Shown: one piece after another, positions 2,649 to 32,720 of the stretch
How positions within the stretch are numbered: position 1 is the first letter of the stretch
Layout of the letters: each line of letters begins with the position of its first letter
Assembly: GCA_025964055.1 (NCBI GenBank)
Contig: JAOPZP010000495.1
Coordinates: forward strand, 1-35,327
DNA: 35,327 nt
Direction: 5' to 3'
Origin: Conexibacter sp.
GTDB taxonomy: Bacteria; Actinomycetota; Thermoleophilia; Solirubrobacterales; Solirubrobacteraceae
The notes under the pieces: model-generated
What the model was told of the DNA's origin: nothing
Seen by the model: the letters and a program-made list of their open reading frames with translations, nothing else
Database searches by the model: none
Translations under genes and position numbers: made by a program

Positions 2649-2675
2649 AACGCTCCTAGGCGGGCAGGGCTTCCG
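2649..2675 (-). promoter_or_regulatory. Putative ECF-type promoter CGGAAG-N17-CGTT (one mismatch)
   Basis: Minus strand: CGGAAG 2675-2670, CGTT 2652-2649, 11 nt before ATG 2637. Confidence 0.6.
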
Positions 2676-3463: not shown

Positions 3464-3490
3464 AACGGCGGCGCGGCCCGGCTACTTGCG
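3464..3490 (-). promoter_or_regulatory. Putative ECF-type promoter CGCAAG-N17-CGTT
   Basis: Exact match: CGCAAG 3490-3485, CGTT 3467-3464, 10 nt to ATG 3453. Confidence 0.75.
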
Positions 3491-3500
3491 CGGCGGCCTC

Positions 3501-3527
3501 CGCAAGATCGCGCCGGGGACCTGCGTT
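3501..3527 (+). promoter_or_regulatory. Putative ECF-type promoter CGCAAG-N17-CGTT
   Basis: Exact match: CGCAAG 3501-3506, CGTT 3524-3527, upstream of the 3602-8667 operon. Confidence 0.75.
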
Positions 3528-3605: not shown

Positions 3606-4600
3606 GCGCCTACGGCAAGGTGCTCGTCACCGGCGGTGGCGGCGCCATCGGCTCCAACATCACCGACGAGCTCGTGCTCGCGGGCGCCGAGGAGATCGTC
3701 GTCCTCGACAACTTCGTGCGCGGGCGCCGCGAGAGCCTCGACTGGGCGCGGGCCAACGGCAACGTCACGCTCGTCGAGGGCGACATCCGCGACAACGCGC
3801 TCGTCCGCCGGCTGATGGACGGCGTCGACGTCGTCTTCCACCAGGCCGCCATCCGCATCACCCAGTGCGCCGAGGAGCCGCGACTCGCGCTCGAGGTCCT
3901 CGTCGACGGCACCTACAACGTCGTCGAGGCCGCCGCCGAGGCGGGCGTCCGCAAGCTCGTCGCCGCCTCGTCGGCCTCCGCCTACGGGCTGGCCGAGACG
4001 TTCCCCACGCGCGAGGATCACCACCCCTACGCCAACGACACCCTGTACGGCGCCTCCAAGGTCTTCCTCGAGGGCCTGCTGCGCAGCATGCACGCGATGA
4101 AGGGCCTCGACTACGTGGCGCTGCGCTACTTCAACGTCTACGGCCCGCGGATGGACGTCCACGGCCTGTACACCGAGGTGCTCGTGCGCTGGATGGAGCG
4201 CATCACGGCCGGCGAGCCGCCGCTGATCCTCGGCGACGGGTCCCAGACGATGGACTTCGTCTACATCGGCGACGTCGCCCGCTCCAACCTCCTGGCCGCC
4301 GAGGCCGACGTGACCGACAAGGTCTACAACGTCGCCAGCGGGACGGAGACCAGCCTGCTGGAGCTCGCCGAGATGCTCGCGCAGGTCATGGGCTCCGAGG
4401 CCGACGTCGAGCACGGACCCGAGCGCTCGGTCAACAAGGTCTCCCGCCGCCTGGCCGACACGACGCTGGCGCGCGACGAGATCGGCTTCGAGGCCACGGT
4501 CGGGCTCGAAGAGGGGCTCACGCGCCTGGTGGAGTGGTGGCGCGGCGAGCGCGAGGGCGCGCCGACCATGCCGATCGGCTCGCTGGCGAGGAGCGCCTGA
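3602..4600 (+). CDS. NAD-dependent nucleotide-sugar epimerase/dehydratase (extended SDR)
   Basis: TGGGGAIG, ASSASAYG, YGASK, LRYFNVYGPR. Confidence 0.93.
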   Translation: MSAYGKVLVTGGGGAIGSNITDELVLAGAEEIVVLDNFVRGRRESLDWARANGNVTLVEGDIRDNALVRRLMDGVDVVFHQAAIRITQCAEEPRLALEVLVDGTYNVVEAAAEAGVRKLVAASSASAYGLAETFPTREDHHPYANDTLYGASKVFLEGLLRSMHAMKGLDYVALRYFNVYGPRMDVHGLYTEVLVRWMERITAGEPPLILGDGSQTMDFVYIGDVARSNLLAAEADVTDKVYNVASGTETSLLELAEMLAQVMGSEADVEHGPERSVNKVSRRLADTTLARDEIGFEATVGLEEGLTRLVEWWRGEREGAPTMPIGSLARSA

Positions 4601-5736
4601 TGGAGGTGCCGTTCAGCCGTCCGTACCTCGTCGGCACCGAGCAGGCGGCCGTCGCCGAGGTCATCACGTCGGGCTGGGTCTCGCAGGGCCCGCGCGTGCG
4701 GGACTTCGAGCAGGCGTTCGCCGCCCGCGTCGGCGCGGCCGACGCGGTCGCCACGACCAACTGCACGACGGCGCTGCAGCTCGCGCTGTACGTCTCCGGC
4801 GTCGGTCCGGGCGACGAGGTGATCGTGCCGTCGATGTCGTTCATCGCCACGGCCAACTCCGTGTGGCAGTGCGGTGCGACGCCGGTCTTCGCCGACATCG
4901 ATCCCCTGACCTACAACTTGGATCCGGCGGCCGCCGAGCGGGCGATCACGCCGCGCACGAAGGCGATCATGCCGGTCCACCAGCTCGGGCTGCCGGCGGA
5001 CATGGACCCGTTCCTGGCCCTCGCCGAGGCCCACGGCCTGGAGATCGTCGAGGACGCCGCGTGCGCGATCGGGGCCTCCTACCGGGGCCGGTCGATCGGC
5101 TCGCTGGGGCCGCTGGCGTGCTTCTCGCTGCACCCGCGCAAGGTCATCACCACGGGGGAGGGCGGGATGATCGCCGTCCAGGATCCCGAGGTGGCCGCGC
5201 GCCTGCGGCGCCTGCGCCAGCACGCGATGGATGTCTCCGACCTCGCGCGCCACGGCGCGCGCGACGTCATCATCGAGACGTATCCGGAGCGCGGCTGGAA
5301 CGCCCGCATGACCGACATGCAGGCCGCGCTCGGGCTCTGCCAGCTCGAGGTCCTCGACGACATCCTGGCCTGGCGCCGGCGCGTGGCCGGGCGCTACACC
5401 GCCGCCCTCGAGTCGATCCCGTTCCTCGAGGCGCCGCACGAGCCCGACTACGCCGACCGCACCTGGCAGTCCTACGCGGTGCGGTTGACCGAGGATGCGC
5501 CGGTCACGCGCAACGAGCTCATGCGCCTGCTGCTGCTCGACGGGGTGCCGACGCGCCGCGGCGTCATGGCCAGCCACGAGGAGCCGGCCTACGCCGGGAC
5601 GGTCGCCGACCTGCCGCACACCGAGGCGGCCAGCCGCGGCTCGATGATGCTGCCCATGTTCGCCGGGCTCAGCGACGAGCATCAGGACCACGTGCTCGAG
5701 CGGCTCGCCGCCCACGTCTCGGCCGTCGCCGCGTGA
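4600..5736 (+). CDS. DegT/DnrJ/EryC1/StrS family PLP-dependent sugar aminotransferase
   Basis: Starts MEVPFSRP at a TGATG overlap; VEDAACAIG and FSLHPRKVITTGEGG (PLP lysine). Confidence 0.93.
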   Translation: MEVPFSRPYLVGTEQAAVAEVITSGWVSQGPRVRDFEQAFAARVGAADAVATTNCTTALQLALYVSGVGPGDEVIVPSMSFIATANSVWQCGATPVFADIDPLTYNLDPAAAERAITPRTKAIMPVHQLGLPADMDPFLALAEAHGLEIVEDAACAIGASYRGRSIGSLGPLACFSLHPRKVITTGEGGMIAVQDPEVAARLRRLRQHAMDVSDLARHGARDVIIETYPERGWNARMTDMQAALGLCQLEVLDDILAWRRRVAGRYTAALESIPFLEAPHEPDYADRTWQSYAVRLTEDAPVTRNELMRLLLLDGVPTRRGVMASHEEPAYAGTVADLPHTEAASRGSMMLPMFAGLSDEHQDHVLERLAAHVSAVAA

Positions 5737-6395
5737 AGCCGCTCCTGCTCGTCGGCGCCGGGGGCTTCGCCCGCGAGACCCTCGAGCTGGTGCGGGCGGT
5801 CAACGCCGTCGCCCCGACCTGGCGGGTCGTCGGGCTCCTGGACGACGACCCGCGCCTGGTCGGCGCCGAGGTGCACGGCGTCCCGGTGCTCGGCCCGTCC
5901 GGCGCGGTGCACGACCATCCCGAGGCGCTGGTCGTCGCGACGGTGGCGTCGCCCGATGCGCCGGCGCGCCGGCTGGAGGTCGTGGCGCGGCTCGGCCTGC
6001 CCGCGGAGCGCTACGCGACCCTGGTGCACCCGACGGCCGTCGTGCCGGCGTCGGCGACGCTGGGCCCCGGCACGGTGCTGCACGCGACGGTCGTCCTCAC
6101 CGCCGACGTGCGGCTCGGCGCTCACGTCGCGGTGATGCCCGCGGTGGTCCTGACCCACGACGACGACCTCGGCGACGGCGTCACGGTCGGCGCGGGCGTG
6201 CGGCTGGCCGGAGACGTGCACGTCGAGCGCGCGGCCTACCTCGGCTCCGGCGCGCTCGTCCGCGAGCACCTGCGCATCGGCGCGGGCGCGGTCGTGGGCA
6301 TGGGCGCGGTCGTCACGCGGTCGGTGCCGCCCGGCGAGGTCTGGGCCGGCGTCCCGGCCCGCTCGCTGGCGGACGTGGTCGCGGCCCGGCCGTGA
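5733..6395 (+). CDS. NeuD/PglD/VioB-family sugar acetyltransferase (left-handed beta helix)
   Basis: GTG start at a GTGA overlap; LVGAGGFARE, LVHPTAVV, hexapeptide repeats, C-terminal WAGVPAR. Confidence 0.9.
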   Translation: MKPLLLVGAGGFARETLELVRAVNAVAPTWRVVGLLDDDPRLVGAEVHGVPVLGPSGAVHDHPEALVVATVASPDAPARRLEVVARLGLPAERYATLVHPTAVVPASATLGPGTVLHATVVLTADVRLGAHVAVMPAVVLTHDDDLGDGVTVGAGVRLAGDVHVERAAYLGSGALVREHLRIGAGAVVGMGAVVTRSVPPGEVWAGVPARSLADVVAARP

Positions 6396-9703: not shown

Positions 9704-9815
9704 CCGTCGCCGGCGGCCCCGAACGCGGTCCCTTTTCCAACCTCCCCGATGGTCGAGTCTTCGGCAGCAGCCGTTGCCCTGGGCCCTCCTCCTCCGATAT
9801 GAGCCAGGCAACGTC

Positions 9816-17346: not shown

Positions 17347-18359
17347 CCGCGGCTCGGCGGCGCACGGCCTTCGTCGCCCTCCTGGCGCTCTGCGTGGTGG
17401 GCGCCGGCGTCGCGGTCCTCGCCGGCCTGGGGTCAGGCGGCGCCGCGAAGGGCGGTTCGACCGGCGCGCTCGCAGACGCGCAGCAGACCCGGCGCCCCGT
17501 GGTCCTGTACCGCACCGGCGACCGGTCGCAGGGCCCGGGCGGGCAGCTCGCGCTCGCATCGCTCGCCCAGCCGGGCACGCCGGCCACCGCGCTGCACCTG
17601 AGCTGCGGCCGCGTGTCCTACGCTCCCGGCGCCGGCCTCTGCCTCACGCAGGCCAAGGGCTTCGCGGCCGGGTACGAGGCCGACGTCTTCGGCGCGGACC
17701 TGAAGGTGCGCCACCGGCTCGCCGTCGAGGGCGTCCCGAGCCGTGCGCGGGTGTCGCCCGACGGGCGGTACGGCGCGGTGACGCTCTTCGTGACCGGCCA
17801 CTCCTACGCCGCGGCCGGGCAGTTCTCCACCGACACGACGCTGATCGACATGCGGTCCGGCCGTGAGGCCGCGCAGCTCGAGCGGTTCGCGGTCACCAAG
17901 GGCGATCGGCAGCTCACCGCGCTCGACATGAACTTCTGGGGCGTGACCTTCGCCCGCGACAGCGACCGCTTCTACGCCACCCTCGCCACGGGCGGCAAGA
18001 CGTACCTGGTGGAGGGATCGGTGCGCGGCCGGACGGCGCGCGTGCTGCACGAGAACGTCGAGTGCCCGTCGCTGTCGCCCGACGGCACGCGCATCGCCTA
18101 CAAGAAGCGGACCGGTCCGGCGTCGCGGCCCTGGCACCTGACCGTGCTCGATCTCGCGACGATGCACGAGACCCCGCTGGCGGAGACGCGCTCGATCGAC
18201 GACCAGGTCGAGTGGCTCGACGACCGGCGCGTCCTCTATGGCGTCGGCGGCGACGTCGACGTCGCTGCGGCCGATGGGACGGGCCGGCCCGCGCGGTTCT
18301 TCACCGGCGGCGGCTCCCCGACGGTCCTGAGCTGGGCAGCGCGCACGCCCGCAAGCTGA
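17343..18359 (+). CDS. Membrane-anchored TolB-like (PD40) beta-propeller protein
   Basis: N-terminal TM segment; SRARVSPDGRY and ECPSLSPDGTRIAY repeats; ATGA overlap with the MFS gene. Confidence 0.75.
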   Translation: MTAARRRTAFVALLALCVVGAGVAVLAGLGSGGAAKGGSTGALADAQQTRRPVVLYRTGDRSQGPGGQLALASLAQPGTPATALHLSCGRVSYAPGAGLCLTQAKGFAAGYEADVFGADLKVRHRLAVEGVPSRARVSPDGRYGAVTLFVTGHSYAAAGQFSTDTTLIDMRSGREAAQLERFAVTKGDRQLTALDMNFWGVTFARDSDRFYATLATGGKTYLVEGSVRGRTARVLHENVECPSLSPDGTRIAYKKRTGPASRPWHLTVLDLATMHETPLAETRSIDDQVEWLDDRRVLYGVGGDVDVAAADGTGRPARFFTGGGSPTVLSWAARTPAS

Positions 18360-18376
18360 CGGCAATCCGGAGCGTT
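18350..18376 (+). promoter_or_regulatory. Putative ECF-type promoter CGCAAG-N17-CGTT
   Basis: Exact match: CGCAAG 18350-18355, CGTT 18373-18376, 10 nt to ATG 18387. Confidence 0.75.
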
Positions 18377-18386
18377 GGTGTGAGTG

Positions 18387-19556
18387 ATGGACACGGTCCT
18401 CCTCATCCTCATCGCCGCCGTCGCGGTTCCCGGCCTGGCGACGGCCCTGCACCTCGGGCTGCTCGCCGGCGCCTCGCTCTTCTACCGCGCGCCGCGGGCC
18501 GGTGCAGGGGACCGGCTCCGCTTCCTCGTCCTCATGCCGGCCCACGACGAGGAGCTCGTCATCGGCCGCTCCCTGGCGGCGATCGCCGCCGACCTCCGCG
18601 AGCGTGACCAGCTCCTGGTCGTCGCCGATCGCTGCACCGACGCCACCGCCACCCTTGCGCGTGCAGCGGGCGCGGCCGTGCTCGAGCGCGGGGACGACGA
18701 CGAGCCCGGCCGCGCGGCCGCACGCCAGGCGGGCCTCGAGCACGCCCGTGGCCTCGAGTGGGACGCGGTGGTCATGCTCGACGCCGACTCCGTGATCGAG
18801 CCCGGCTTCTTCGCCGCCTGCGAGCAGGCGCTCGCGTCCGGCGCACCGGCGGTCCAGGCACGGAGCGAGAGCAGCCACGGCCGGACGCTGGCCGCGGAGG
18901 CATCGCTGGCCGCCTTCACCCTGCAGGGCATCACGATCCCGCGCGGACGCAGCGCGCTCGGCCTCTCGGTCCGGCTCCGCGGCACGGGCATGGCGATCCG
19001 CCGCGACGTCGCCCTCGCGCACCGGTTCCGCGCGCCGGCCTCCGAGGACCTCTACTTCACGCTGGACCTGCTCCTCGCCGGCCATCGCTGTCGCCACGTC
19101 GACCCGGCTCGGCTGCGGTCGGAGGGGGCGAGCGGCTGGGGGACCTTCGGCGGTCAGAAGGTCCGCTACGAGGCCGGACGGATGAACGCGGCGCGCGACT
19201 TCGTCGTGCCGCTGCTGCGCCGCGCGGTGCGCGAGCGCGACGTCGCGTGCCTGGAGGCCGCGTGGTTCCTGGCCAGCCCGCCGTTCGCCGCGGCGGCGGT
19301 CTCGCTGCTGCTGGGCACGGCGCTGGCCGCCGTCGCCGGCGCCTGGCCGCTGGCCGTCGTCGGCGCGGCGGCGTTCGCGGTGCTGGCCGGCGCGCTGGTC
19401 GTGGGCCTGATCCAGGCGCGCGCCGGGTGGCGCACCTGGCTGGCGCTGGCCGCCGCCCCGTGGTACCTGGCGTGGAAGACCGTCGTCCAGGTGCGCGCGC
19501 TGATCCGCGTGCTGCGCCGCGACGACTACTACGGGCCGACGGCCCGCCGCGCCTGA
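18387..19556 (+). CDS. Membrane glycosyltransferase family 2 (cellulose-synthase-like)
   Basis: PAHDEE, VADRCTD, LDAD, SEDL, QKVRY; N- and C-terminal TM helices. Confidence 0.88.
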   Translation: MDTVLLILIAAVAVPGLATALHLGLLAGASLFYRAPRAGAGDRLRFLVLMPAHDEELVIGRSLAAIAADLRERDQLLVVADRCTDATATLARAAGAAVLERGDDDEPGRAAARQAGLEHARGLEWDAVVMLDADSVIEPGFFAACEQALASGAPAVQARSESSHGRTLAAEASLAAFTLQGITIPRGRSALGLSVRLRGTGMAIRRDVALAHRFRAPASEDLYFTLDLLLAGHRCRHVDPARLRSEGASGWGTFGGQKVRYEAGRMNAARDFVVPLLRRAVRERDVACLEAAWFLASPPFAAAAVSLLLGTALAAVAGAWPLAVVGAAAFAVLAGALVVGLIQARAGWRTWLALAAAPWYLAWKTVVQVRALIRVLRRDDYYGPTARRA

Positions 19557-23374: not shown

Positions 23375-23832
23375 CGACCTATCTCCTAGTCGTTGGCCTG
23401 CGGGTATGCGTGGACCGTGCAGTGCAGCTATCGGCGCTGATGCCGATGACGCTTGAAACCTGCTCGCAGGAACTGGACGGCCTGGCGCCGCGACCAACAC
23501 GTCCAGAAGGCACGGCGGATCCTCCGGTCATCAGACTGGTCAGCGATGCAGATCGACAGAGTGCGTCGCGCCGCCGGGAGCTCCGGCAGTGGCTCATGGA
23601 CCTGCGACAGCTGGGAACGGGCCTGAGGTGCGGAAGATCCGGAGATCCCCTGCCTCGCACCTGGCCGCTGGGCAGCGTAGTACCTCGATCGCCGAGGGCT
23701 AAACGCCGCAGTCGCGGCGTGTCAGCACCCTGCCCTGGGTGGGCGTCCAGGAGCGCCGCGGCGTACCACGGGCGTGGATGGGCGGCCGCACCCGCGAGCG
23801 GGGGCCGACTCCATCATCTTCGGACCGAGCGA

Positions 23833-23866: not shown

Positions 23867-24130
23867 TCAGGTCAGCTTGCGGTCGACCAGCTCGCTGAGG
23901 CTGGCCAGCGTCTCGAACGCCTCGGCGGTGACGTCGTCGCCGTCGAAGACGATGCCGAACCGCGCCTCGAGCGCGACGACGAGCTCCGCCACGGCCAGCG
24001 AGTCCAGCTCCGGGAGCGCGCCGAGCAGCGGCGTGGACGCGTCGATCGTGCCGGCGCGGTCCTCGAGGCCGAGGGTCTCGACGATCACGGCCTTGACGCT
24101 CTCGATGCTCGTCGTGGTGTTGGGGTCCAT
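23867..24130 (-). CDS. Acyl carrier protein
   Basis: 87 aa, acidic; LLGALPELDSLAV phosphopantetheine-serine motif; AGGAG SD 5 nt before the ATG. Confidence 0.9.
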   Translation of the reverse strand: MDPNTTTSIESVKAVIVETLGLEDRAGTIDASTPLLGALPELDSLAVAELVVALEARFGIVFDGDDVTAEAFETLASLSELVDRKLT

Positions 24131-24174
24131 CGGTGCTCCTGTCGCGGAAGGGCGGTCGTGCTCGTCGGACATCT

Positions 24175-25395
24175 TCACACGAGCACTTCGGCGGCGGCCG
24201 GGTGGCCGAGGAAGGCCGCCGGGCTGGCGGTCAGCCCGTAGGCGCCCGCCTGGAACATGACCACCAGGTCGCCGACGTCGGCGGGCGGCAGCTCCACGTT
24301 GTCGGCGAGCAGGTCCAGCGGCGTGCAGAGGCAGCCGACGACCGTCACGGCCTCGGTCTCGGTCGCGTCCCCGCGCCCGCCGATCGCCACGGGGTAGTTG
24401 CGCCGGATGACCTGGCCGAAGTTGCCCGAGGCGGCGAGCTGGTGATGGAGTCCGCCGTCCACGACGAGGAACGTCTTGCCCCGGGACTCCTTGCGGTCGA
24501 CGACGCGCGTCACGTAGACGCCGCACTCGCCGACGACGTAGCGGCCCAGCTCGACCACGACGCGCGCGTCGGGCAGGTTGGGGGTCACGACGTCGGCCAG
24601 GAGCCCGGCCAGGTTCTCGCCGATCGCGCCGAGGTCCAGCGGCTGGTCCTGGGGGAAGTAGGGGATCCCGAAGCCGCCGCCGACGTTCAGGTACCGGATC
24701 GGCTCGGCCGCATGCTCGGCCAGCGCGACCGCGAGGTCGACGGTCTTGCGCTGCGCCTCGCACAGGATCTCGGCGTTGAGGTTCTGGGAGCCGGCGAAGA
24801 TGTGGAAGCCCAGGAGCTCGAGGTCGGTGGCGGCGATCTGCGCCAGCAGCGCCGGCACCTGCTCGGCGTCGACGCCGAACTGCTGGGGGCCGCCCGACAT
24901 CCGCATGCCCGAGCCCTTCACCTGGAAGTCGGGGTTGACGCGCACCGCGACGCGCGGCCGGATGCCGAGCCGCTCGCCCGTCTCGGCGATGCGCCGCGCC
25001 TCGGTCGCCGACTCCATCTCGATCGTCACGCCGGCCGCGACGGCCTGGCTGAGCTCCTGCGGCGTCTTGCCCGGGCCGGCGAAGCTGATCCGGTCCGCCG
25101 GCGTGGGCGTGTCGAGCGCGACCTGCATCTCGCCCGCCGAGGCGACGTCCAGCGAGTCCACCAGGCCGCTGAGGTGCTGGACGACCGCCGGCATCGGGTT
25201 GGCCTTCACGGCGTAGCTCAGGTCGATGCCCGCCGGCAGCGTCGCACGCAGCAGCGCGATGCGCTCGTTCAGCAGCGCGCGGTCGTAGGCGAAGAACGGG
25301 GTGGTGCCGACGCGAGCGGCGAGGCGCTCGAGCGGCACGCCGCCGACGTGGTCGCAATGGCGCAGCGCGGTGGCGGTGGCGATGGTGTCGGTCAT
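24175..25395 (-). CDS. Fold-type III PLP-dependent decarboxylase (BtrK-like; 'exosortase A system-associated' TIGR03099-like)
   Basis: SYAVKANP (PLP lysine), FHIFAGSQNL, NVGGGFGIPYF, ELGRY, GCLCTPLD, GAYG. Confidence 0.9.
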   Translation of the reverse strand: MTDTIATATALRHCDHVGGVPLERLAARVGTTPFFAYDRALLNERIALLRATLPAGIDLSYAVKANPMPAVVQHLSGLVDSLDVASAGEMQVALDTPTPADRISFAGPGKTPQELSQAVAAGVTIEMESATEARRIAETGERLGIRPRVAVRVNPDFQVKGSGMRMSGGPQQFGVDAEQVPALLAQIAATDLELLGFHIFAGSQNLNAEILCEAQRKTVDLAVALAEHAAEPIRYLNVGGGFGIPYFPQDQPLDLGAIGENLAGLLADVVTPNLPDARVVVELGRYVVGECGVYVTRVVDRKESRGKTFLVVDGGLHHQLAASGNFGQVIRRNYPVAIGGRGDATETEAVTVVGCLCTPLDLLADNVELPPADVGDLVVMFQAGAYGLTASPAAFLGHPAAAEVLV

Positions 25396-26945
25396 GAGGA
25401 CGCGAGCTCCTGGCGCAGCAGGTTGCGGTCGAACTTGTCGTTGGGCGAGCGGGGAAGCTCGGCCCGCACGGAGACGTGCTTGGGCAGCATGTAGAGCGGC
25501 AGCTGCTTGCGCAGCTCCGCCAGCAGGACGCCGGGGTCGAGCTCGGCGCCGTTGGCCGGGCTGACGGCCAGGACGATGCGCTGGCCGAGGCGGTCGTCGT
25601 CGATGCCGAGGGCGACCGCGTCGCGGACCAGGCCCGTGCCGTAGACGACCTCCTCGATCTCGGTCGGGCTCACGCGGTAGCCGGACGTCTTGATCATCTC
25701 GTCCTTGCGGCTGACGAAGTAGAGGAACCCCTCCGCGTCGCGGGTCACGGCGTCGCCGGAGAAGACCGCCAGCTCGGTGGTCATGAGGCCCGGGTCGCGG
25801 CCGGGGGCCGGCTTGAAGCGCTCGGCGGTGCGCGCGGCGTCGTTCCAGTAGCCCAGCGCCACGAGCGCGCCGCGATGCACGAGCTCGCCCTCCTCGCCGT
25901 CGTCGCAGAGCGTGCCGTCCTCGCGGACGACGAGGATCTCGGCGTTCGGGATCGCCTTGCCGATCGAGTCCGGGCGGCGATCCACCTCGTCGGGGTCGAG
26001 GTAGGTCGAGCGGAACGCCTCCGTGAGGCCGTACATGAGGTACGGCTTGGCCGCCGGGAAGATCGCCCGGAGCCGGTCCAGCGTGGCCCGTGGCATGCGC
26101 CCACCGGTGTTGGCGAAGTAGCGCAGGCTCTCCGACGCCTCCGCCGGCCACTCCTGCTCGGCCAGCTGGATCCACAGCGGTGGCACGCACGTCAGCCCCG
26201 TGACGCGATGGCGGGCGCACAGGGCGACGACGTCGCGCGCGAGCAGGTAGTCCACGAGCACGACGTGCGCGCCGACGGTGAACGCGGTGGTGAGCTGGCT
26301 GAAGCCGGCGTCGAAGCTCAGCGGCAGCGCGGCCAGGATGACGTCGTCGGCGTCGTTGTGGAGGTACTCGCTGACGCTCGCGCCGCCGACCAGCAGGTTG
26401 CGGTGCGAGAGGACGACGCCCTTGGGCTTGCCCGTGCTGCCCGACGTGTACAGGATCGCCGCGAGGTCGACGTCGACGCGCGGGCCGGACGGCAGCGGGG
26501 TGTCCGGAGCCAGGACGTCCTCCCAGGACCGGGCGCCGCCGGCGGGCTCCGTGCCGAGGACGACGAGGTGCTCCAGCGCCGGGCACTGTCCGAGCTCGTC
26601 GCGCAGGAGCGCGAGGCGCTCGGCGGTCGTGACCAGGACGCGGACGTCGCAGTCGGCCAGGATGTAGGCGACCTGCTTGGCCCGGAGCTGCGGGTTGACG
26701 GGCACGAACACGCCACCCGCGGCGGAGGTGCCGAAGATCGAGACCACGGTCTCGACACGCTTGTCGAGGTAGACGCCGACGCGCTCGCCCCGCTGGAGGC
26801 CCAGCGCGGCGAGCCCGGCACCGAACGCCGCGACGTCGTGCCAGAGCTCGGCGTAGCCGACCGTGCGGTCCTTGACCGTCAGCGCGGGGGCGTCCGGCGT
26901 CCGGGCGGCCGCGTCGGCGATCAGGTGGTGCAGGTGGGTGTGCAT
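25392..26945 (-). CDS. AMP-forming acyl/aminoacyl ligase ('exosortase A system-associated' TIGR03098-like)
   Basis: YTSGSTGKPKG, LPLSFDAG, YGLTEAFRSTY, KTSGYRVSPTEIEE, PRSPNDK; GGAGGA SD. Confidence 0.9.
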   Translation of the reverse strand: MHTHLHHLIADAAARTPDAPALTVKDRTVGYAELWHDVAAFGAGLAALGLQRGERVGVYLDKRVETVVSIFGTSAAGGVFVPVNPQLRAKQVAYILADCDVRVLVTTAERLALLRDELGQCPALEHLVVLGTEPAGGARSWEDVLAPDTPLPSGPRVDVDLAAILYTSGSTGKPKGVVLSHRNLLVGGASVSEYLHNDADDVILAALPLSFDAGFSQLTTAFTVGAHVVLVDYLLARDVVALCARHRVTGLTCVPPLWIQLAEQEWPAEASESLRYFANTGGRMPRATLDRLRAIFPAAKPYLMYGLTEAFRSTYLDPDEVDRRPDSIGKAIPNAEILVVREDGTLCDDGEEGELVHRGALVALGYWNDAARTAERFKPAPGRDPGLMTTELAVFSGDAVTRDAEGFLYFVSRKDEMIKTSGYRVSPTEIEEVVYGTGLVRDAVALGIDDDRLGQRIVLAVSPANGAELDPGVLLAELRKQLPLYMLPKHVSVRAELPRSPNDKFDRNLLRQELASS

Positions 26946-26973
26946 GCTGGGCTGGTCCTCCGGGCCGTCCGCG

Positions 26974-27831
26974 TCACCAGGGGACGCACACGAGCTCGCT
27001 GTAGAAGTAGTCGATCTGGGCGGCGTCGAGGTTCGCGCTGCGAAACATCTTGCGCCGCGTCGCCTTCACGTCGAGGGCCAGGCGGGGGCGACGTCCGACG
27101 ATGCGGTCCTCGGCGAGCATCGCCGGCATGCCGTGGCGCAGCAGCAGATGGCGCGCGAAGGGGCGCCGGCAGCGGGCGAACAGCTCACGGTCGCTGACGT
27201 GCAGCACCGAGGCGAACAGCGGCAGCCCCCGGCGCCGGTCCTTGCGGAACACGACGTAGCACCACCGGTCGCCGCGCCGCAGGACGACGTGACGGGCCGC
27301 GGCGGCGGTGGCGTGGTCGCGATACAGCTGGAGCTGGTCGCCGGTCAGGACCTGCTCGATCCCGGCCCGGTCGGCGATGACCTCGGTCCGGCCCGGCAGC
27401 GACGGCCACGGCAGGTTGGGGACGAGCGCGGCCGCGGTGTCCAGGAAGCGGAAGCTCAACTTGGTGTTGATGTCCACGACGCTGCCGCTGGGCGAGAGGT
27501 CGGTGAACGTGTAGCCGTCCTGGGCCAGCAGCGCCTTGAGCAGGCGCAGGCCGTGGAAGCGGTAGGCGGGGAGGACGCACCACGCGCCGAGGTTGCAGAA
27601 GCGCTCGCGCCGGCCGTCGATGGTGCGCTCGGAGTAGAAGGCGAGATGGGCGCCCACGATCGTCCCGTCGTCGAGCAGCATGAAGCCGCCGTTCGGGCGC
27701 TCGGCCGTCCACGGGACGTCCAGCGCGCCGGCCCACACGTCCGGGCCGACCCGCTCGTTGAGGTGCTCGTGGAGGAAGGCGCCGACCCGGGGGCCGTCGT
27801 CCGGCGCGATGGGGTGCAGCGTCAGCGCCAC
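26974..27831 (-). CDS. Putative GNAT-fold acyltransferase
   Basis: GTG start overlapping the deacetylase stop; FCNLGAWCVLPAYRFHGLRLL resembles GNAT motif A. Confidence 0.6.
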   Translation of the reverse strand: MALTLHPIAPDDGPRVGAFLHEHLNERVGPDVWAGALDVPWTAERPNGGFMLLDDGTIVGAHLAFYSERTIDGRRERFCNLGAWCVLPAYRFHGLRLLKALLAQDGYTFTDLSPSGSVVDINTKLSFRFLDTAAALVPNLPWPSLPGRTEVIADRAGIEQVLTGDQLQLYRDHATAAAARHVVLRRGDRWCYVVFRKDRRRGLPLFASVLHVSDRELFARCRRPFARHLLLRHGMPAMLAEDRIVGRRPRLALDVKATRRKMFRSANLDAAQIDYFYSELVCVPW

Positions 27832-28490
27832 CGCTTCACCGCCAGCTTGGCGTGGCGCTGCAGCCGCGCGACCGGCTGCGCCTCCGACGCGGTGGCCGTC
27901 GTGAGCACCGCGTCGGCACGATCGGCCGAGTGGATCGAGGTGCGTGCCTGCAGCCACGCGTCCGGGTGGGCGGTGCCGCCGTCGCTGGTGTATACGCGGT
28001 CATAGCCGCCGCGGCGCAGCGCTCGCAGGACGCGGCGATCGTAGGCGCCGAACGGGCACGATGCTTCGGTGACCGGGCGGTCGAGGACGCCCTCGAGCTG
28101 CGCCTTGGCCTCGACGAGCTCTTCGTGCAGGCCCTCGTCGGGGAGATGGCGCCAGGGGACGTGGCGCATGCCGTGGCAGCCGATGGCCATGCCGGCGTCG
28201 GCCAGGGCCCGGACGTCGCCGGCGCTCAGGAACCCCGGCCGGCCGAGCCGCTCGGCGACGACGAAGAAGGTGCCGCGCAGCTTGCGCCGCTCCAGCTCCG
28301 GCAGGGCGTGCCGGACGTCGGACGCGTTGCCGTCGTCGAACGTCAGGCGGACGTCGGCGCGGCCCGACACGTGGTCGAGCACGGCTCCGAACAGCTGCCG
28401 ATCGATCCAGACGTCGCCTTCTCCGTCGTCCAGCGGCCGGTCGATGTCGCCGATCCCGTGGAAGGTCAACGTGATGAATCGCGGATCCAT
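27822..28490 (-). CDS. Polysaccharide deacetylase (CE4/NodB domain), no signal peptide
   Basis: LTFDDG, GCHGMRH, CPFG; ATG 28490 lies 10 nt after the promoter CGTT. Confidence 0.88.
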   Translation of the reverse strand: MDPRFITLTFHGIGDIDRPLDDGEGDVWIDRQLFGAVLDHVSGRADVRLTFDDGNASDVRHALPELERRKLRGTFFVVAERLGRPGFLSAGDVRALADAGMAIGCHGMRHVPWRHLPDEGLHEELVEAKAQLEGVLDRPVTEASCPFGAYDRRVLRALRRGGYDRVYTSDGGTAHPDAWLQARTSIHSADRADAVLTTATASEAQPVARLQRHAKLAVKRWR

Positions 28491-28500
28491 GCGTTCCATC

Positions 28501-28527
28501 AACGGCCACGCGCGGCAAGCACTTGCG
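28501..28527 (-). promoter_or_regulatory. Putative ECF-type promoter CGCAAG-N17-CGTT
   Basis: Exact match: CGCAAG 28527-28522, CGTT 28504-28501, 10 nt to ATG 28490. Confidence 0.75.
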
Positions 28528-28558: not shown

Positions 28559-28585
28559 CGCAAGAAGCCCTACGGGCCCGGCGTT
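28559..28585 (+). promoter_or_regulatory. Putative ECF-type promoter CGCAAG-N17-CGTT
   Basis: Exact match: CGCAAG 28559-28564, CGTT 28582-28585, upstream of ATG 28639. Confidence 0.75.
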
Positions 28586-28638: not shown

Positions 28639-29481
28639 ATGCAAACCGTCACGATCCTCCGCCAGCTCTGGCGCCTCCGCCTGGCCACCGCCCTGATCGC
28701 CCTCGTGTCGGTGGCCGTCGGGACGCTGGTGGTCGCCAAGTTCTCCTTCCCGGCGGCGCTGCAGACCCGCAAGTACGAGGTCGGGATCGCCAACGTGCGC
28801 ATCCTCGTCGACACGCCCGAGTCGCAGGTCGTCGACGTGGCGCCGCGCGGGTCCGACACGCTGGGGATCCGCGCCAACCTCCTGGCCAACCTGATGGTCG
28901 ACGGAGACGTCAAGGCCGCGATCGGCCGGCGTGCCGGCCTGGCGTCCAGCCAGTTCTTCGGGATCGCCGAGTCGGCGACCGACCCGGGGGCCCAGACGCC
29001 GCCGAGCGATCCACGCAGGGCGGTGGTCTTCCGCACCAAGGTGTCGACGACGCCCGACGGCAGCCGCCTCCCGATCATCGAGGTCGAGGCCCAGGCGCCC
29101 GACACCGCCGGCGCGACGCGTCTGGCGAACGCCACGATCGCCGGCCTGCAGGACTACCTCAACTCCAAGGCCGCGCAGGACAACGTCAGGGACGCGCGCC
29201 GCCTGCGCGTCGGCGGCCTCGGCGTGGCCGAGGCGCACATGGCGCCGCGCGGTCCGCGCCTCTTCTACGGCATCGCCGCGGCGCTCTTCCTGTTCGGGCT
29301 CGGCTGCTTCACGATGATCGGCGGCTCGCGGTTGGCACGGGCCTACCGCGCCGCGGGCACCGCGGAGGAGCAGGCCGGGGCCGGCGACCCCCTCGAGGAC
29401 GCGCCGGAGCACCGTGAGGACCGCAACGACGTGCGGTCGCTGACGCCGGTCGACGGCCCGCTGCACGAGCGCGCCTCCTAG
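28639..29481 (+). CDS. Wzz/CapA-like membrane protein (paralog 3)
   Basis: Two TM segments; ILVDTPESQ...GSDTLGIRANLLANLM and LPIIEVEAQAPDTAGATRLANA. Confidence 0.65.
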   Translation: MQTVTILRQLWRLRLATALIALVSVAVGTLVVAKFSFPAALQTRKYEVGIANVRILVDTPESQVVDVAPRGSDTLGIRANLLANLMVDGDVKAAIGRRAGLASSQFFGIAESATDPGAQTPPSDPRRAVVFRTKVSTTPDGSRLPIIEVEAQAPDTAGATRLANATIAGLQDYLNSKAAQDNVRDARRLRVGGLGVAEAHMAPRGPRLFYGIAAALFLFGLGCFTMIGGSRLARAYRAAGTAEEQAGAGDPLEDAPEHREDRNDVRSLTPVDGPLHERAS

Positions 29482-29597: not shown

Positions 29598-30656
29598 CTA
29601 GATGAGCGCGGGCGCCGTCAGCGCCGGCACCGCGACCGGCGTGCCGCCGAGGCGCAGGGACTCCTCGGCCGCCTCGACGCACGCCACGATGTCGTAGCCG
29701 AGCTCGGCGTGCGAGCGCGGCCGCTGGCCGGTGACGATCGCCCGGGCGAAGTCCGCCAGCTCGAGGCTCAGCGGCTCGGCCGCCTCGACGCGCGGGATGA
29801 CGATGTCGCCCGAGCGGTAGCTGAGCTGGTGCTCCCCGAAGTTCTTGGGGGTCTTGATGTCCATGCCCCGGTCGTACACGCGAACGGTCTCATCGGCCGC
29901 GGTGTCGTCGTACTGGACCATCTTCTGGCTGCCGACGATCACCATCTCGCGCACCTTGCGCGGCGCCAGCCACGAGATCTGCACGTTGGCGGCGGTGCCG
30001 TTGGCGAACGTCAGCGTCAGGAAGGCCACCTCCGGCACGCCGTCCTGGAACACGCTGCGGGCCGACGCGCTGACCTGCACGACGGGCTGGTCGAGCAGGT
30101 ACATCAGGATCGACAGGTCGTGCGGTGCGAGGTCGCAGACGACGCCGTCGGACTGGTACTTGCCGAGGTTCATGCGCGAGGAGGTCACGAAGTAGACCTC
30201 CCCGAGCTCACCCGCCAGGACGAGGTCGCGGATCTTGTTGACCGACGGGCTGTAGAGGAAGGTGTGCCCCGGCATGAGCGTCAGGCGGTTGGCCGTGGCG
30301 ATCTCGATCAGGTCGCGGGCCTCCGCCGCGGTCTTGGCCAGCGGCTTCTCCACCATGACGTGCTTGCCCGCGCGCAGCGCCGCCGCCACGAGCGCGTGGT
30401 GCGTCCGCGGCGGGGTGGCGATGAGGACGGCGTCGACGGAGGCGTCGGCGAGGACGTCGTCGAAGTCGGCGATGACCGGCGTGCCGGGCATCCGGGCCGA
30501 GAAGGCGGCGGCCCGCTCGGGGTCGCGCTCGCAGAGGCCGGCGAGCTCGAGCTCGGGGCGCTCGGCGACGTTGCGGACCAGGTTCGGGCCCCAGTAGCCG
30601 TAGCCGACGACGACGACGCGCAACGGCGCGGACGGGTTCTGCGTGGACATGGTCAT
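29598..30656 (-). CDS. Gfo/Idh/MocA family oxidoreductase (WbpB/WlbA-like sugar 3-dehydrogenase candidate)
   Basis: VVGYGYWGPNL, GKHVMVEKPL, DLAPHD; TGATG overlap with the upstream aminotransferase. Confidence 0.9.
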   Translation of the reverse strand: MTMSTQNPSAPLRVVVVGYGYWGPNLVRNVAERPELELAGLCERDPERAAAFSARMPGTPVIADFDDVLADASVDAVLIATPPRTHHALVAAALRAGKHVMVEKPLAKTAAEARDLIEIATANRLTLMPGHTFLYSPSVNKIRDLVLAGELGEVYFVTSSRMNLGKYQSDGVVCDLAPHDLSILMYLLDQPVVQVSASARSVFQDGVPEVAFLTLTFANGTAANVQISWLAPRKVREMVIVGSQKMVQYDDTAADETVRVYDRGMDIKTPKNFGEHQLSYRSGDIVIPRVEAAEPLSLELADFARAIVTGQRPRSHAELGYDIVACVEAAEESLRLGGTPVAVPALTAPALI

Positions 30657-31783
30657 CACTCCCCGGGCTCGAACGAACGGACGGCGGCGACGATCTGGGC
30701 GACCTCGTGGTCGGTCATCGTCGGGAACAGCGGCAACGTGCAGATCTCCCGCGCCAGGCGCTCGGCGCCGGGCAGGGTGCCCTCCGGCAGCGCGCCGTAG
30801 GCCTCCGTGCGGTGGATCGGGAACGGGTAGTGCACCGCCGTGGACACGCCATGGCGCTCGAGGTGCGCGCGCAGCGCGTCCCGGTGGCCCGACCGCACGA
30901 CGAACAGGTGATAGACGTGGTCGGCACCGTCGAACGCCGGCGCAGGGAGCTCCACGCTCGTGCCGGCCAGGCCGTCGGCCAGAGCGGCGCCGAGGCGGCG
31001 ACGGTCGGCGTTGCGGTCGTCGAGGTGGCGGAGCTTGACCCGGAGCAGCGCGGCCTGCAGGGCGTCCAGCCGCGCGGTCGTCCCGACGATCCGGTGGTGG
31101 TAGCGGGGCGACTCGCCGTGCGAGCGCAGCAGGCGCACGCGCGCCGCGAGGTCCTCGTCCGGCGTGACGACGGCGCCGCCGTCGCCCCAGCCCCCGAGGT
31201 TCTTGGTGGGGTAGAACGAGAAGCAGCCGACGTCGCCGACGCTGCCCACGCGGCGGTCGCGGTGGAACGCTCCGTGCGCCTGGGCCGTGTCCTCGATGAC
31301 GCGCAGGCCGGCGTCGCGGGCCACGGCGAGGATCGGGTCGAGGTCGACCGTCGAGCCCATGAGGTGCACGGGGACGACGCAGCGGGTGCTCGGCGTGATC
31401 GCCGCAGCGACGGCGTCGGCGGTGAGGAGGTGCGTCTGCGGATCCACGTCGACCAGGACCGGCGTCGCGCCGACCCAGCTGACGGCCTCCGCCGTCGCGA
31501 TGAACGAGTTCGACGGGACGATGACCTCGTCGCCGGGGCCGATGTCCAGCGCGCGCAGCGCCAGCGAGATCGCCTCGGTCCCGGAGGACACGCCGACCGC
31601 GTGCGGGGAGCCGCAGTACGTCGCGAACTCCTGCTCGAAGGCCTCGAGCTCGGAGCCCATCGTGAAGGCGCCCTGGCGGGCGACCCGCTCCACGACGGCC
31701 AGCAGCTCCTCGAGCAGCACGGGGTCTGACTGGTCCAGGCGCGTGACCGGGATCGCCGGAGCGGTGGTGGTGTGGGTCGACAT
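30656..31783 (-). CDS. DegT/DnrJ/EryC1/StrS family aminotransferase (WbpE/FdtB-like)
   Basis: IEDTAQAHGA, FSFYPTKNLGGWGDGGA, RLDALQAA. Confidence 0.93.
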   Translation of the reverse strand: MSTHTTTAPAIPVTRLDQSDPVLLEELLAVVERVARQGAFTMGSELEAFEQEFATYCGSPHAVGVSSGTEAISLALRALDIGPGDEVIVPSNSFIATAEAVSWVGATPVLVDVDPQTHLLTADAVAAAITPSTRCVVPVHLMGSTVDLDPILAVARDAGLRVIEDTAQAHGAFHRDRRVGSVGDVGCFSFYPTKNLGGWGDGGAVVTPDEDLAARVRLLRSHGESPRYHHRIVGTTARLDALQAALLRVKLRHLDDRNADRRRLGAALADGLAGTSVELPAPAFDGADHVYHLFVVRSGHRDALRAHLERHGVSTAVHYPFPIHRTEAYGALPEGTLPGAERLAREICTLPLFPTMTDHEVAQIVAAVRSFEPGE

Positions 31784-32442
31784 CACGCGGCCACCTTGGC
31801 GCCGATGGTCGGGCCGCAGCCCATGTCGGCGAGCGCGGTGCGCAGGGCGCCGCGGCCGCGGTGGTGCAGGCCGTGGATGGAGGACTCGGTGCGGCCCATG
31901 CGGCCGGCGATCTCACCCGGCGAGAGGCCGACGAGGTGGCGCATGACGACGACCTGGCGCTGGTCCTCGGGAAGGGTGGCGAGCGCGTCGCGGAGGCCGA
32001 GCGAGCGGTGGCGCGACGCGTCGTCGTCCTCCTCGCGGTCGTCGAGCTCGCGCACCTCCTCACAGGGGATGGCGCGCCGCTGGCGCATGTGGTCGACGGC
32101 GACGTTGCGGGCGACGCGGAGGATCCACGCGGAGAACGGGACCTCGCGCGGCTCGTACTTCGGCAGCGCCGTCATGAGCTTGGCGAACAGGTGCTGCGTG
32201 ACGTCCTCGGCCTCGAAGTCGTCGCGCACGATGCTGGCGACGTAGCCGTAGATGTGGTCCGCGTAGCGGACGTAGAGGAAGCGCAGCGCCTCACGGTCGC
32301 CCTGCTTGGCGCGGGCGACGGCCTGGTCGACGGCGCGGTTGCTGGCGTCGTCGTCGGTCAGGCGGCCCGCCCGCCGGAACTGGCCGGTGAGCACCCCCGA
32401 CGTCCCCGGTGCCGTCCGACTGAACTCTGCGTGCGCTGACAT
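31783..32442 (-). CDS. ECF-family RNA polymerase sigma-70 factor
   Basis: Region 2 EAEDVTQHLF...FSAWILRVARNVAVDHMR; region 4 LPEDQRQVVVMR...SPGEIAGRMG...LHHRGR; AGGA SD before ATG 32442. Confidence 0.92.
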   Translation of the reverse strand: MSAHAEFSRTAPGTSGVLTGQFRRAGRLTDDDASNRAVDQAVARAKQGDREALRFLYVRYADHIYGYVASIVRDDFEAEDVTQHLFAKLMTALPKYEPREVPFSAWILRVARNVAVDHMRQRRAIPCEEVRELDDREEDDDASRHRSLGLRDALATLPEDQRQVVVMRHLVGLSPGEIAGRMGRTESSIHGLHHRGRGALRTALADMGCGPTIGAKVAA

Positions 32443-32720
32443 CAATGTCCTGTCCGTTGCTGGTCGTCCGTGGGTGATCGAGGCCAGCGGGAAGCGACCG
32501 GCGCAATCCCCTGCGCCGGCGGCCACTGGCCTCGAGCGTCGCGGGCTCCGCCGCGACGGACTGCTGGCGACCGAGCCGGCAACCCCTGCCTTCGAGCCGG
32601 TCGCTTCATGCGTCCCCGTCCACCGAGTGAACGACTGGGAGTATGAATTTCGGATGGGGGTGCCCGGAAGGTGATCCCTGGTCGGGCCGGACACGGCAAC
32701 CGTCACCCACGCCCCGGAGA

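What the first reader, a model, noticed from the sequence alone, without database searches (positions are those of the whole stretch)
23867..28490. Self-contained ACP-dependent glycan re-acylation operon: deacetylase-GNAT-ligase-decarboxylase-ACP
Seen: five co-directional, closely spaced or overlapping genes behind one exact regulon promoter; the deacetylase lacks a signal peptide. Known: butirosin BtrK decarboxylates gamma-glutamyl-ACP to 4-aminobutyryl-ACP, and vicenistatin VinN/VinL/VinO adenylate, carry and decarboxylate methylaspartate. The ligase/decarboxylase families resemble TIGR03098/TIGR03099, defined from proteobacterial exosortase A/EPS loci, for which I know no established product. 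Inference: a dicarboxylic amino acid is loaded on the ACP and decarboxylated to a GABA- or beta-alanyl-type group. The GNAT then transfers it to a sugar amine unmasked by the deacetylase, swapping N-acetyl for a cationic aminoacyl group. This would be an antibiotic-type assembly line used for envelope tailoring.
Basis: partly seen in the sequence, partly recalled or inferred. Interest (0 to 1): 0.82.

Follow-up and report, generated by a model that had tools for sequence, protein, structure and literature searches.

The report
Beta-alanyl tailoring module for surface polysaccharide
Five co-directional genes inside a soil bacterium's surface-polysaccharide locus likely load aspartate onto a small carrier protein, trim it there to beta-alanine and would attach it to a sugar amine freed by a deacetylase, a predicted use of antibiotic-type chemistry for a widespread gene set whose sugar product appears undescribed.

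Summary
Observation confirmed. Five overlapping or closely spaced minus-strand genes (CE4 deacetylase, tandem GNAT, TIGR03098 ligase, TIGR03099 decarboxylase, ACP) follow a CGCAAG-N17-CGTT motif found 5 times in the window (0.02 expected) and twice beside Wzx/Wzy genes on another contig. The ligase is 48% identical to the Burkholderia AfcQ orthologue and has the same 10-residue pocket; AfcQ activates L-aspartate in vitro. So the carrier product is likely beta-alanyl, not GABA. The decarboxylase is BtrK-like, not LysA-like. The conserved core is GNAT-ligase-decarboxylase-ACP (66 of 80 loci). The deacetylase abuts the GNAT in only 12 of 70 loci, but lies within 10 kb in 50 of 70 and is rare in background genomes. 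Two four-gene cores lack it. Transfer to sugar and the acetyl-for-beta-alanyl swap are inferred (about 0.5). First-half chemistry is known; I found no paper on the glycan hand-over. The scan already reported this module on other DNA (10 earlier findings seen). New variant of a known kind.

The parts
28501..28527 (-). CGCAAG-N17-CGTT motif, likely an ECF-sigma promoter, 10 nt before the deacetylase start
   Evidence: function inferred
27822..28490 (-). CE4 de-N-acetylase without signal peptide; H11, D52, D53, H106, H110 and R183 invariant in the subfamily
   Evidence: PF01522; conservation in 50 rows; hydropathy
26974..27831 (-). tandem-GNAT acyltransferase of an unnamed family, net charge +8, without the glycine-rich CoA loop
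   Evidence: model and fold searches; loop in 3 of 150 rows; charge
25392..26945 (-). TIGR03098 stand-alone adenylation enzyme, AfcQ/VinN type (D212, T280, R312, K504); predicted L-Asp side-chain activation
24175..25398 (-). TIGR03099 fold-III PLP decarboxylase, BtrK-like (YAVKAN lysine motif; CTPLD where LysA has CETGD)
23867..24130 (-). stand-alone acyl carrier protein, invariant D43-S44, net charge -12
28559..28585 (+). divergent copy of the same promoter motif, before a Wzz-like gene (28639-29481)
   Evidence: Wzz-like by similarity to 2656-3450 and 794-1603 and to the Wzz-Wzy frame on C185
1627..2637 (-). GT2 glycosyltransferase of the family that lies within 1.5 kb of the deacetylase in 33 of 50 related loci; likely adds the sugar that is modified
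   Evidence: role inferred
3464..3527 (.). back-to-back pair of the promoter motif before the Wzz-GT2 genes and the epimerase-DegT-acetyltransferase genes
4597..6395 (+). DegT aminotransferase and NeuD/PglB-family sugar acetyltransferase: a possible source of N-acetylated amino sugar
18350..19556 (+). promoter motif and a second GT2 of the same regulon
29598..31786 (-). GFO oxidoreductase and second DegT aminotransferase: rival source of a free sugar amine
31783..32706 (-). ECF sigma factor, candidate reader of the promoter motif
   Evidence: link to the motif untested

Best explanation
The ligase likely adenylates the side-chain carboxyl of L-aspartate and loads it on the ACP, the PLP enzyme likely removes the alpha-carboxyl there to give beta-alanyl-ACP, and the tandem GNAT would transfer the beta-alanyl group to a sugar amine that the cytoplasmic deacetylase is predicted to free on a Wzx/Wzy repeat-unit precursor. 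The result would be a polysaccharide with a cationic N-beta-alanyl group in place of N-acetyl. Shown: gene content, family membership, fold, pocket residues, shared promoter motif and linkage. Inferred with high odds: Asp loading (about 0.85) and on-carrier decarboxylation (about 0.8 for both steps). Inferred with lower odds: the GNAT takes the acyl group from this ACP and puts it on the polysaccharide (about 0.65), and the acceptor is the deacetylase's product (about 0.5 for the whole chain). The most likely site is the lipid-linked repeat on the inner face of the membrane, since none of the five proteins has a clear membrane helix.
For: Ligase: 48% identical over 514 aa to the AfcQ orthologue of a Burkholderia arboris afc cluster. 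That cluster was identified from its gene content, an ACP with Ser40 and the same 192-residue Arg-to-Lys spacing as AfcQ R311/K503. The 10 pocket positions are identical, and 74 of 97 aligned ligase rows share them (a few rows repeat the same gene). AfcQ activates L-Asp but not beta-Ala, loads AfcK, and AfcP decarboxylates it on the carrier (PMC12186527 section 9). VinN D230, S299 and R331 bind the amine and free carboxylate (PMC7756342 passage); they align with D212, T280 and R312 here. Decarboxylase: BtrK 252 bits against LysA 168; CTPLD resembles BtrK CTPED, not LysA CETGD, and is kept in 67 of 69 rows. GNAT: tandem fold, Z 14.1, rmsd 4.7 over 267 residues to N-myristoyltransferase, with Eis-like matches. 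A canonical CoA loop is present in 3 of 150 rows. 70 of 80 GNAT loci hold ligase and decarboxylase, and 66 also hold the ACP. In proteobacterial TIGR03099 loci, 21 of 26 hold hydrolase 1, 1 of 26 holds this GNAT and none holds both, which suggests alternative hand-over enzymes. Deacetylase: within 10 kb in 50 of 70 loci and 41 of 54 long loci. Of the 13 long loci without it, 10 were searched genome-wide: 9 have it, 8 on the same contig 11.5-34 kb away. Background: 0 of 400 phylum genomes and 1 of 200 class genomes, and that one lies 0.9 kb from the GNAT. It accompanies the core in rhizobia too, including an S. meliloti pSymB locus with no DegT within 18 kb. The same promoter motif precedes Wzz-Wzy and the priming-transferase region on contig C185.
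Against: No activity was measured. The decarboxylase is far closer to the Glu-ACP enzyme BtrK than to the Asp-ACP enzyme AfcP (26%). The ACP is only weakly like AfcK (30% over 44 aa). Two four-gene cores stand outside polysaccharide loci and lack the deacetylase (G748, G408); in the unbiased class sample only 1 of 2 GNAT-bearing genomes has it. The same ligase pocket serves small-molecule clusters (L084, L085). The deacetylase abuts the GNAT in only 12 of 70 loci, and its tree distances track the GNAT less well (0.59) than the ligase's do (0.79). Two DegT aminotransferases in the window offer other amines. Deacetylases are common in polysaccharide loci and often leave free amines (own knowledge). 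The 80 loci are the best 80 of 163 matches and include close kin. The phylum background search scored at most 7 candidates per genome. I found no report of N-beta-alanyl sugars.
Confidence: 0.5

Rival explanations
1. Same beta-alanyl-ACP and same glycan target, but the acceptor does not come from the deacetylase: it is a DegT-made NDP-amino sugar or a sugar hydroxyl, and the deacetylase acts on another residue.
For: Two DegT genes and a GFO oxidoreductase lie in the window. DegT is within 10 kb in 15-17 of 54 long loci. The deacetylase position varies, and two cores lack it.
Against: The deacetylase is linked more often than DegT (41 of 54 against 15-17 of 54). The S. meliloti locus has the deacetylase but no DegT within 18 kb. 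The deacetylase subfamily is almost confined to cassette genomes.
Confidence: 0.2
2. The ligase loads glutamate and the product is 4-aminobutyryl (GABA)-ACP, as in butirosin.
For: BtrK is the closest solved relative of the decarboxylase. Pocket positions 213 and 311 (Ala, Phe) differ from VinN (Phe, Lys).
Against: The Asp-specific AfcQ orthologue has the same Ala and Phe and the same ten pocket residues. BolN, a BtrK-like enzyme, is proposed to act on Asp-ACP (PMC7756342).
Confidence: 0.1
3. Beta-alanyl-ACP is made, but the GNAT's acceptor is not a polysaccharide: it is a lipid, the polyprenyl carrier, a protein or a small molecule.
For: Stand-alone cores occur in G748, next to an undecaprenyl-phosphate translocase-like gene, and in G408. 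Orphan GNAT paralogues occur in 7 Actinoplanes loci with no glycosyltransferase. The fold is closest to N-myristoyltransferase and Eis.
Against: 50 of 54 long loci hold a glycosyltransferase, Wzy or Wzx. The operon shares its promoter motif with the Wzx/Wzy genes.
Confidence: 0.1
4. The GNAT works the other way round: it acylates the amine of beta-alanyl-ACP, as the capping enzymes of the AFC and bolagladin pathways do, and another enzyme moves the product on.
For: In the AFC and bolagladin pathways the beta-alanyl amine is the nucleophile.
Against: No second transferase is in the core. The CoA-binding loop is missing in 147 of 150 rows; that ACP-using GNATs lack this loop is recalled, not tested.
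Confidence: 0.07
5. The genes are an ordinary fatty acyl-CoA ligase and a free diaminopimelate or ornithine decarboxylase, with no shared pathway.
For: Database names say acyl-CoA ligase; LysA models match below cut-off.
Against: The ligase has the amine-binding Asp and the VinN-type Arg. The decarboxylase scores 234 bits against TIGR01048, below its cut-off of 297.9, and lacks the acidic residue after the catalytic Cys. The four genes stay together across two phyla.
Confidence: 0.03

Closest known systems
AfcQ / AfcK / AfcP of AFC-BC11 lipopeptide synthesis (Burkholderia cepacia complex; PMC12186527), and BolO / BolC / BolN of bolagladin (PMC7756342)
   Same: Stand-alone VinN-type ligase, free ACP and PLP decarboxylase. 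The ligase is 48% identical with an identical pocket, and both ligases pass TIGR03098.
   Different: Here there is no FAAL, KAS III or citrate synthase. A tandem GNAT, a deacetylase and Wzx/Wzy genes stand in their place. The decarboxylase is only 26% identical to AfcP.
VinN / VinL / VinO (vicenistatin) and FlvN / FlvL / FlvO (fluvirucin B2) (PMC11284099, PMC11350588)
   Same: Side-chain activation of an aspartate-type amino acid followed by decarboxylation on the carrier; VinN D230/S299/R331 are matched.
   Different: No polyketide synthase and no VinM/VinK protection step; the product is predicted to go to a glycan.
BtrI / BtrJ / BtrK (butirosin side chain; PMC11350588)
   Same: BtrK is the closest solved decarboxylase. 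An ACP-borne aminoacyl group ends up on an amino sugar.
   Different: Butirosin uses Glu. From memory, BtrJ is an ATP-grasp ligase and BtrH a non-GNAT transferase. Here the ligase is AMP-forming and the transferase a tandem GNAT.
Exosortase A system-associated set: TIGR03098, TIGR03099, ACP, hydrolases 1 and 2, XrtA deacetylase, FemAB-like protein
   Same: Same ligase and decarboxylase families, next to an ACP in a Wzx/Wzy locus that also has a CE4 deacetylase.
   Different: No exosortase or hydrolase 1 was found in this 68%-complete genome. The GNAT takes the hydrolases' place, and the deacetylase is another subfamily.
Caulobacter holdfast HfsH / HfsK (PMC5362036)
   Same: A cytosolic deacetylase plus a tandem GNAT, proposed to acylate amines exposed by the deacetylase on polysaccharide precursors.
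   Different: HfsK is FemX-like, its donor is unknown and the step is unproven. I saw no ACP, ligase or decarboxylase named with it in the passages read. The HfsH model matches only weakly (30 bits against a cut-off of 400).

Membership tests
TIGR03098 ligase | score above the curated cut-off | tested here: met
   766.6 against 592.35
TIGR03099 decarboxylase | score above the curated cut-off | tested here: met
   588.1 against 478.45
Exosortase A / PEP-CTERM system | exosortase gene in the locus or genome | tested here: inconclusive
   PF09721 not found, but the genome is 68% complete; none in the window
Exosortase A / PEP-CTERM system | hydrolase 1 and 2 beside the ACP | tested here: not met
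   the five genes hold none; no TIGR03100 match over cut-off in the genome
VinN/AfcQ-type beta-amino acid adenylation enzymes | D230, S299 and R331 equivalents and the catalytic Lys | tested here: met
   D212, T280, R312, K504; pocket identical to the AfcQ orthologue
VinN/AfcQ-type beta-amino acid adenylation enzymes | activates L-Asp and loads a stand-alone ACP | not testable with these tools
   needs an adenylation assay and ACP mass spectrometry
BtrK-type aminoacyl-ACP decarboxylases | fold-III PLP enzyme closer to BtrK than to LysA/ODC, without the distal-amine acidic residue | tested here: met
   252 against 168 bits; CTPLD; the role of that residue is recalled
BtrK-type aminoacyl-ACP decarboxylases | acts on the ACP-bound and not the free amino acid | not testable with these tools
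   needs an assay
LysA diaminopimelate decarboxylase | TIGR01048 score above cut-off | tested here: not met
   234.4 against 297.9
GNAT superfamily, tandem type | two GNAT domains in one chain | tested here: met
   Z 14.1, rmsd 4.7, 267 aligned to NMT; Eis E 1e-8
Acetyl-CoA-dependent GNATs | R/Q-x-x-G-x-G/A pyrophosphate loop (motif recalled) | tested here: not met
   3 of 150 rows
Fem / HfsK-type aminoacyl transferases | sequence or fold match to FemABX | tested here: inconclusive
   no Pfam Fem match; Fem proteins are not among the listed fold rows
CE4 de-N-acetylases | Asp-Asp motif, His-x3-His metal site, catalytic His and Arg | tested here: met
   D52, D53, H106, H110, H11 and R183 in 100% of 50 rows; role assignment recalled
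CE4 de-N-acetylases | removes N-acetyl from the sugar that is later re-acylated | not testable with these tools
   needs the polymer structure and mutants

The most novel reading that the evidence does not exclude
Because AfcQ, with the same pocket, iterates with its decarboxylase to build (beta-Ala)n on the carrier, this ligase/decarboxylase pair builds short oligo-beta-alanine (nylon-3-like) chains. An ACP-specific tandem GNAT grafts them onto de-N-acetylated sugars, giving a peptide-brushed or cross-linkable cationic capsule. The hydrolase-type exosortase A loci of Proteobacteria do the same with a different hand-over enzyme.
Probability: 0.15. Interest if true: 0.85.

Novelty: new variant of a known kind. 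Interest (0 to 1): 0.56.

Why it matters
If right, it gives a product to two widespread families known only by the name 'exosortase A system-associated': 27 of 401 sampled proteobacterial genomes pass the TIGR03099 cut-off. It predicts a polysaccharide substituent, N-beta-alanyl, for which my searches found no report, and an unnamed ACP-dependent tandem-GNAT family (1,268 cluster representatives at E<=1e-10). A cationic group of this kind would change charge, adhesion and phage or peptide binding of the cell surface. It can be tested in cultured, genetically tractable hosts: S. meliloti strains such as Rm41 and SM11 carry the decarboxylase at 69% identity on their megaplasmid, whereas strain 2011's best ligase-core match is 43%. 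The score is moderate because the first half is known chemistry, the second half is untested, and the scan has reported the module repeatedly.

Tried and rejected
Complex prediction of GNAT with ACP: no verdict (score 0.26, mark 0.32). RNA search: no RNA holder listed. Sequence search of the PDB with the GNAT alignment: nothing significant. ESM Atlas: only unnamed or weakly Acetyltransf_1 clusters. The generic repeat finder did not show the promoter; it was found by eye in upstream sequences and then tested, so the spacing was chosen after looking. Neighbouring spacings give 0-12 genome-wide hits with no clustering, and a 16-nt spacing gives 13 scattered hits in the loci. Paper searches: 'TIGR03099' 0 papers; five-term exosortase search 0; 'exosortase A system-associated' 0; beta-alanine/EPS search 0; polysaccharide NMR search 51 papers, none of the 25 listed containing beta-alanyl or 4-aminobutanoyl; PEP-CTERM search 3 listed, none on this chemistry as far as seen. 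Most subscription papers are not in the library. The idea that the Actinoplanes missouriensis sporangium clusters hold this cassette was dropped: PMC13390465 has no 'decarboxylase' or 'acyl carrier'. The AFC paper's supplement, with its pocket-code table, could not be read, so the AfcQ pocket comes from an orthologue in B. arboris and not from the assayed strain. The careful ligase tree did not finish; the quick tree places the AfcQ orthologue on a long branch, so its position is not used. Tree-distance correlations reflect shared ancestry and are not taken as proof of co-evolution. Rows dropped: 10 of 80 loci without both ligase and decarboxylase; 16 of 70 shorter than 19 kb for the 'long loci' counts; 3 of 13 deacetylase-negative long loci not searched genome-wide; frameshifted or short alignments. 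Rejected readings: fatty acyl-CoA ligase, LysA, exosortase substrate processing.
Full report
Observation. The five genes are real and lie as described, all on the minus strand: deacetylase 28490-27822, GNAT 27831-26974, ligase 26945-25392, decarboxylase 25398-24175, ACP 24130-23867. Junctions are -10, +28, -7 and +44 nt. Ligase and decarboxylase pass the cut-offs of TIGR03098 and TIGR03099. The motif CGCAAG-N17-CGTT occurs five times in the window against 0.02 expected, each time shortly before a polysaccharide gene. Two more of the genome's ten copies are on contig C185, which holds a Wzz-Wzy frame, a Wzx flippase, an Alg14/GT28 pair and a priming sugar transferase. The operon is therefore likely part of one Wzx/Wzy regulon; an ECF sigma at 32706-31783 is the candidate reader (untested). 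The window is a whole contig of a 68%-complete genome. Its nearest ligase relatives are from Solirubrobacterales, so that origin is inferred.

The ligase. Its substrate-binding core matches only VinN in the PDB at E<1e-12. VinN D230, S299 and R331, which bind the amine and free carboxylate of methylaspartate (PMC7756342, passage read), align with D212, T280 and R312. A closer characterised relative exists. A B. arboris record holds an afc cluster, recognised by FAAL, ACP with Ser40, decarboxylase, acyl-CoA dehydrogenase, citrate synthase, methyltransferase and TauD genes (legend). Its AfcQ orthologue is 48% identical to the window's ligase, passes TIGR03098 and has the same ten pocket residues, DASPATMFRK, shared by 74 of 97 aligned rows. 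AfcQ activates L-Asp and not beta-Ala, loads AfcK, and iterates with AfcP to give beta-Ala/Asp peptides on the carrier (PMC12186527, section 9 read whole; supplement not readable). Aspartate is thus the likely substrate. The caveat is that the sequence compared is an orthologue from another strain.

The decarboxylase and ACP. BtrK is the best solved match (252 bits; LysA 168). The CTPLD motif follows BtrK, not LysA, and is kept in 67 of 69 rows. BtrK, CtaF and FlvO all decarboxylate aminoacyl-ACPs (PMC11350588, passages), and VinO needs the thioester (PMC11284099, passages). Against a simple Asp reading, the enzyme is only 26% identical to AfcP, which keeps GABA alive at about 0.1. The ACP has an invariant Asp-Ser; the only PPTase found is on C470.

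The GNAT. It has no curated family but many relatives (1,943 proteins among 7,996 scored; 1,268 representatives at E<=1e-10). The model is a tandem GNAT resembling N-myristoyltransferase and Eis. The glycine-rich CoA loop is present in 3 of 150 rows, and the protein is basic (+8) while the ACP is acidic (-12). Both fit an ACP donor but do not show it. In 26 proteobacterial TIGR03099 regions, 21 have hydrolase 1, one has this GNAT, none has both and four have neither. The GNAT and the hydrolase pair look like alternative hand-over enzymes.

Synteny. Of the best 80 GNAT loci (of 163), 70 hold ligase and decarboxylase and 66 also the ACP, across Thermoleophilia, Actinomycetes and rhizobia. 50 of 54 long loci hold a glycosyltransferase, Wzy or Wzx. 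The deacetylase subfamily, with an intact active site and no signal peptide, is directly upstream in only 12 of 70 loci but within 10 kb in 50 of 70. Nine of ten further genomes have it, eight on the same contig. It was not found in 400 phylum genomes and found in 1 of 200 class genomes, beside the GNAT. A particular GT2 lies within 1.5 kb of it in 33 of 50 loci. S. meliloti pSymB carries GNAT-ligase-decarboxylase-ACP-GT2-deacetylase with no DegT within 18 kb. Against an obligate link, G748 and G408 carry the four-gene core with no deacetylase or polysaccharide genes nearby, and seven Actinoplanes loci hold an orphan GNAT paralogue; three of those genomes were checked and have a full cassette elsewhere.

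Mechanism. Most likely: Asp to beta-aspartyl-ACP to beta-alanyl-ACP, then transfer by the GNAT to an amine freed by the deacetylase on a repeat-unit precursor before Wzx export. Odds are about 0.8 for beta-alanyl-ACP, 0.65 for transfer to the polysaccharide and 0.5 for the whole swap. Rivals: a DegT-derived amine or a hydroxyl as acceptor (0.2), GABA (0.1), a non-glycan acceptor (0.1), the GNAT capping the beta-alanyl amine (0.07), unrelated housekeeping enzymes (0.03).

Comparison. It works like AfcQ/K/P, VinN/L/O and BtrI/J/K in its first half. [quoted passage not shown] It is a member of TIGR03098 and TIGR03099 but is not shown to be an exosortase system. My searches found no paper on this cassette or on N-beta-alanyl glycans; the library lacks most subscription journals. 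Of PMC13390465 I read the first part and term passages, and of the epsSMASH preprint term passages; neither names this cassette in what I saw.

Earlier findings. The scan reported this module on other DNA at least ten times, two of them naming AfcQ. I reached the AfcQ link, before seeing those two. They are not independent support.

Verdict. A real, widespread module; a new variant of a known kind. The carrier chemistry is well supported; the glycan hand-over is untested but directly testable. Interest 0.56.

Noticed in passing
L166 (own genome, contig C185) 1-7838: Wzz-Wzy frame, Wzx flippase, Alg14/GT28 pair, priming sugar transferase and LuxR-type regulators, with two more copies of the promoter motif: probably the rest of this regulon.
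   Followed up: partly
window 9567-15401: A very large protein (up to 1944 aa) with a DMFA2_C domain, four DUF4082 and several fibronectin III repeats; homologues recur in about 20 of the 80 related loci.
   Followed up: no
window 19567-21228 and 21431-23377: Two paralogous proteins with TSP3-type calcium repeats, Pro-Thr linkers and beta-helix domains (one with a PKD domain), candidates for polysaccharide binding or cleavage.
   Followed up: no
window 794-1603, 2656-3450, 28639-29481: Three paralogous short Wzz-like membrane proteins with no Pfam match, and a fourth on C185.
   Followed up: partly
L032, L041, L049, L055, L056, L057, L063 (GNAT at about 10001-10858): Orphan paralogue of the tandem GNAT in Actinoplanes; in L063 it lies beside a GH5 hydrolase and an M10-like peptidase gene. 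Full cassettes lie elsewhere in the three genomes checked.
   Followed up: partly
L157 13670-18671 (G748): Four-gene core directly after an undecaprenyl-phosphate translocase-like gene (PF04018), with no polysaccharide genes nearby.
   Followed up: partly
L084 6692-18823 (Burkholderia cenocepacia record): Ligase with the same pocket, decarboxylase (55% identical), ACP, three KAS III-like genes, acyl-CoA dehydrogenases, a GNAT and LuxI/LuxR: an apparently distinct beta-alanine small-molecule cluster.
   Followed up: partly
L162, L163 (G456, G686), family f19 of the phylum sample: 18 of 31 genomes of one actinobacterial family carry a more distant decarboxylase (about 42% identical, below cut-off), next to a related ligase in the three regions fetched.
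   Followed up: no
L086 5173-7035 (S. meliloti 2011 pSymB): A related ligase (38% identical, VinN-like Lys-Arg pocket) beside an ACP and an asparagine synthetase-like gene; recalled as SMb20650/SMb20651. Its pocket suggests an aspartate-type substrate too.
   Followed up: partly
window 25434-25439 region (ligase residue 503): The A10 motif reads N-D-K where most relatives have N-G-K; 2 of 97 rows share it and others have N-N-K, so it is probably tolerated.
   Followed up: partly
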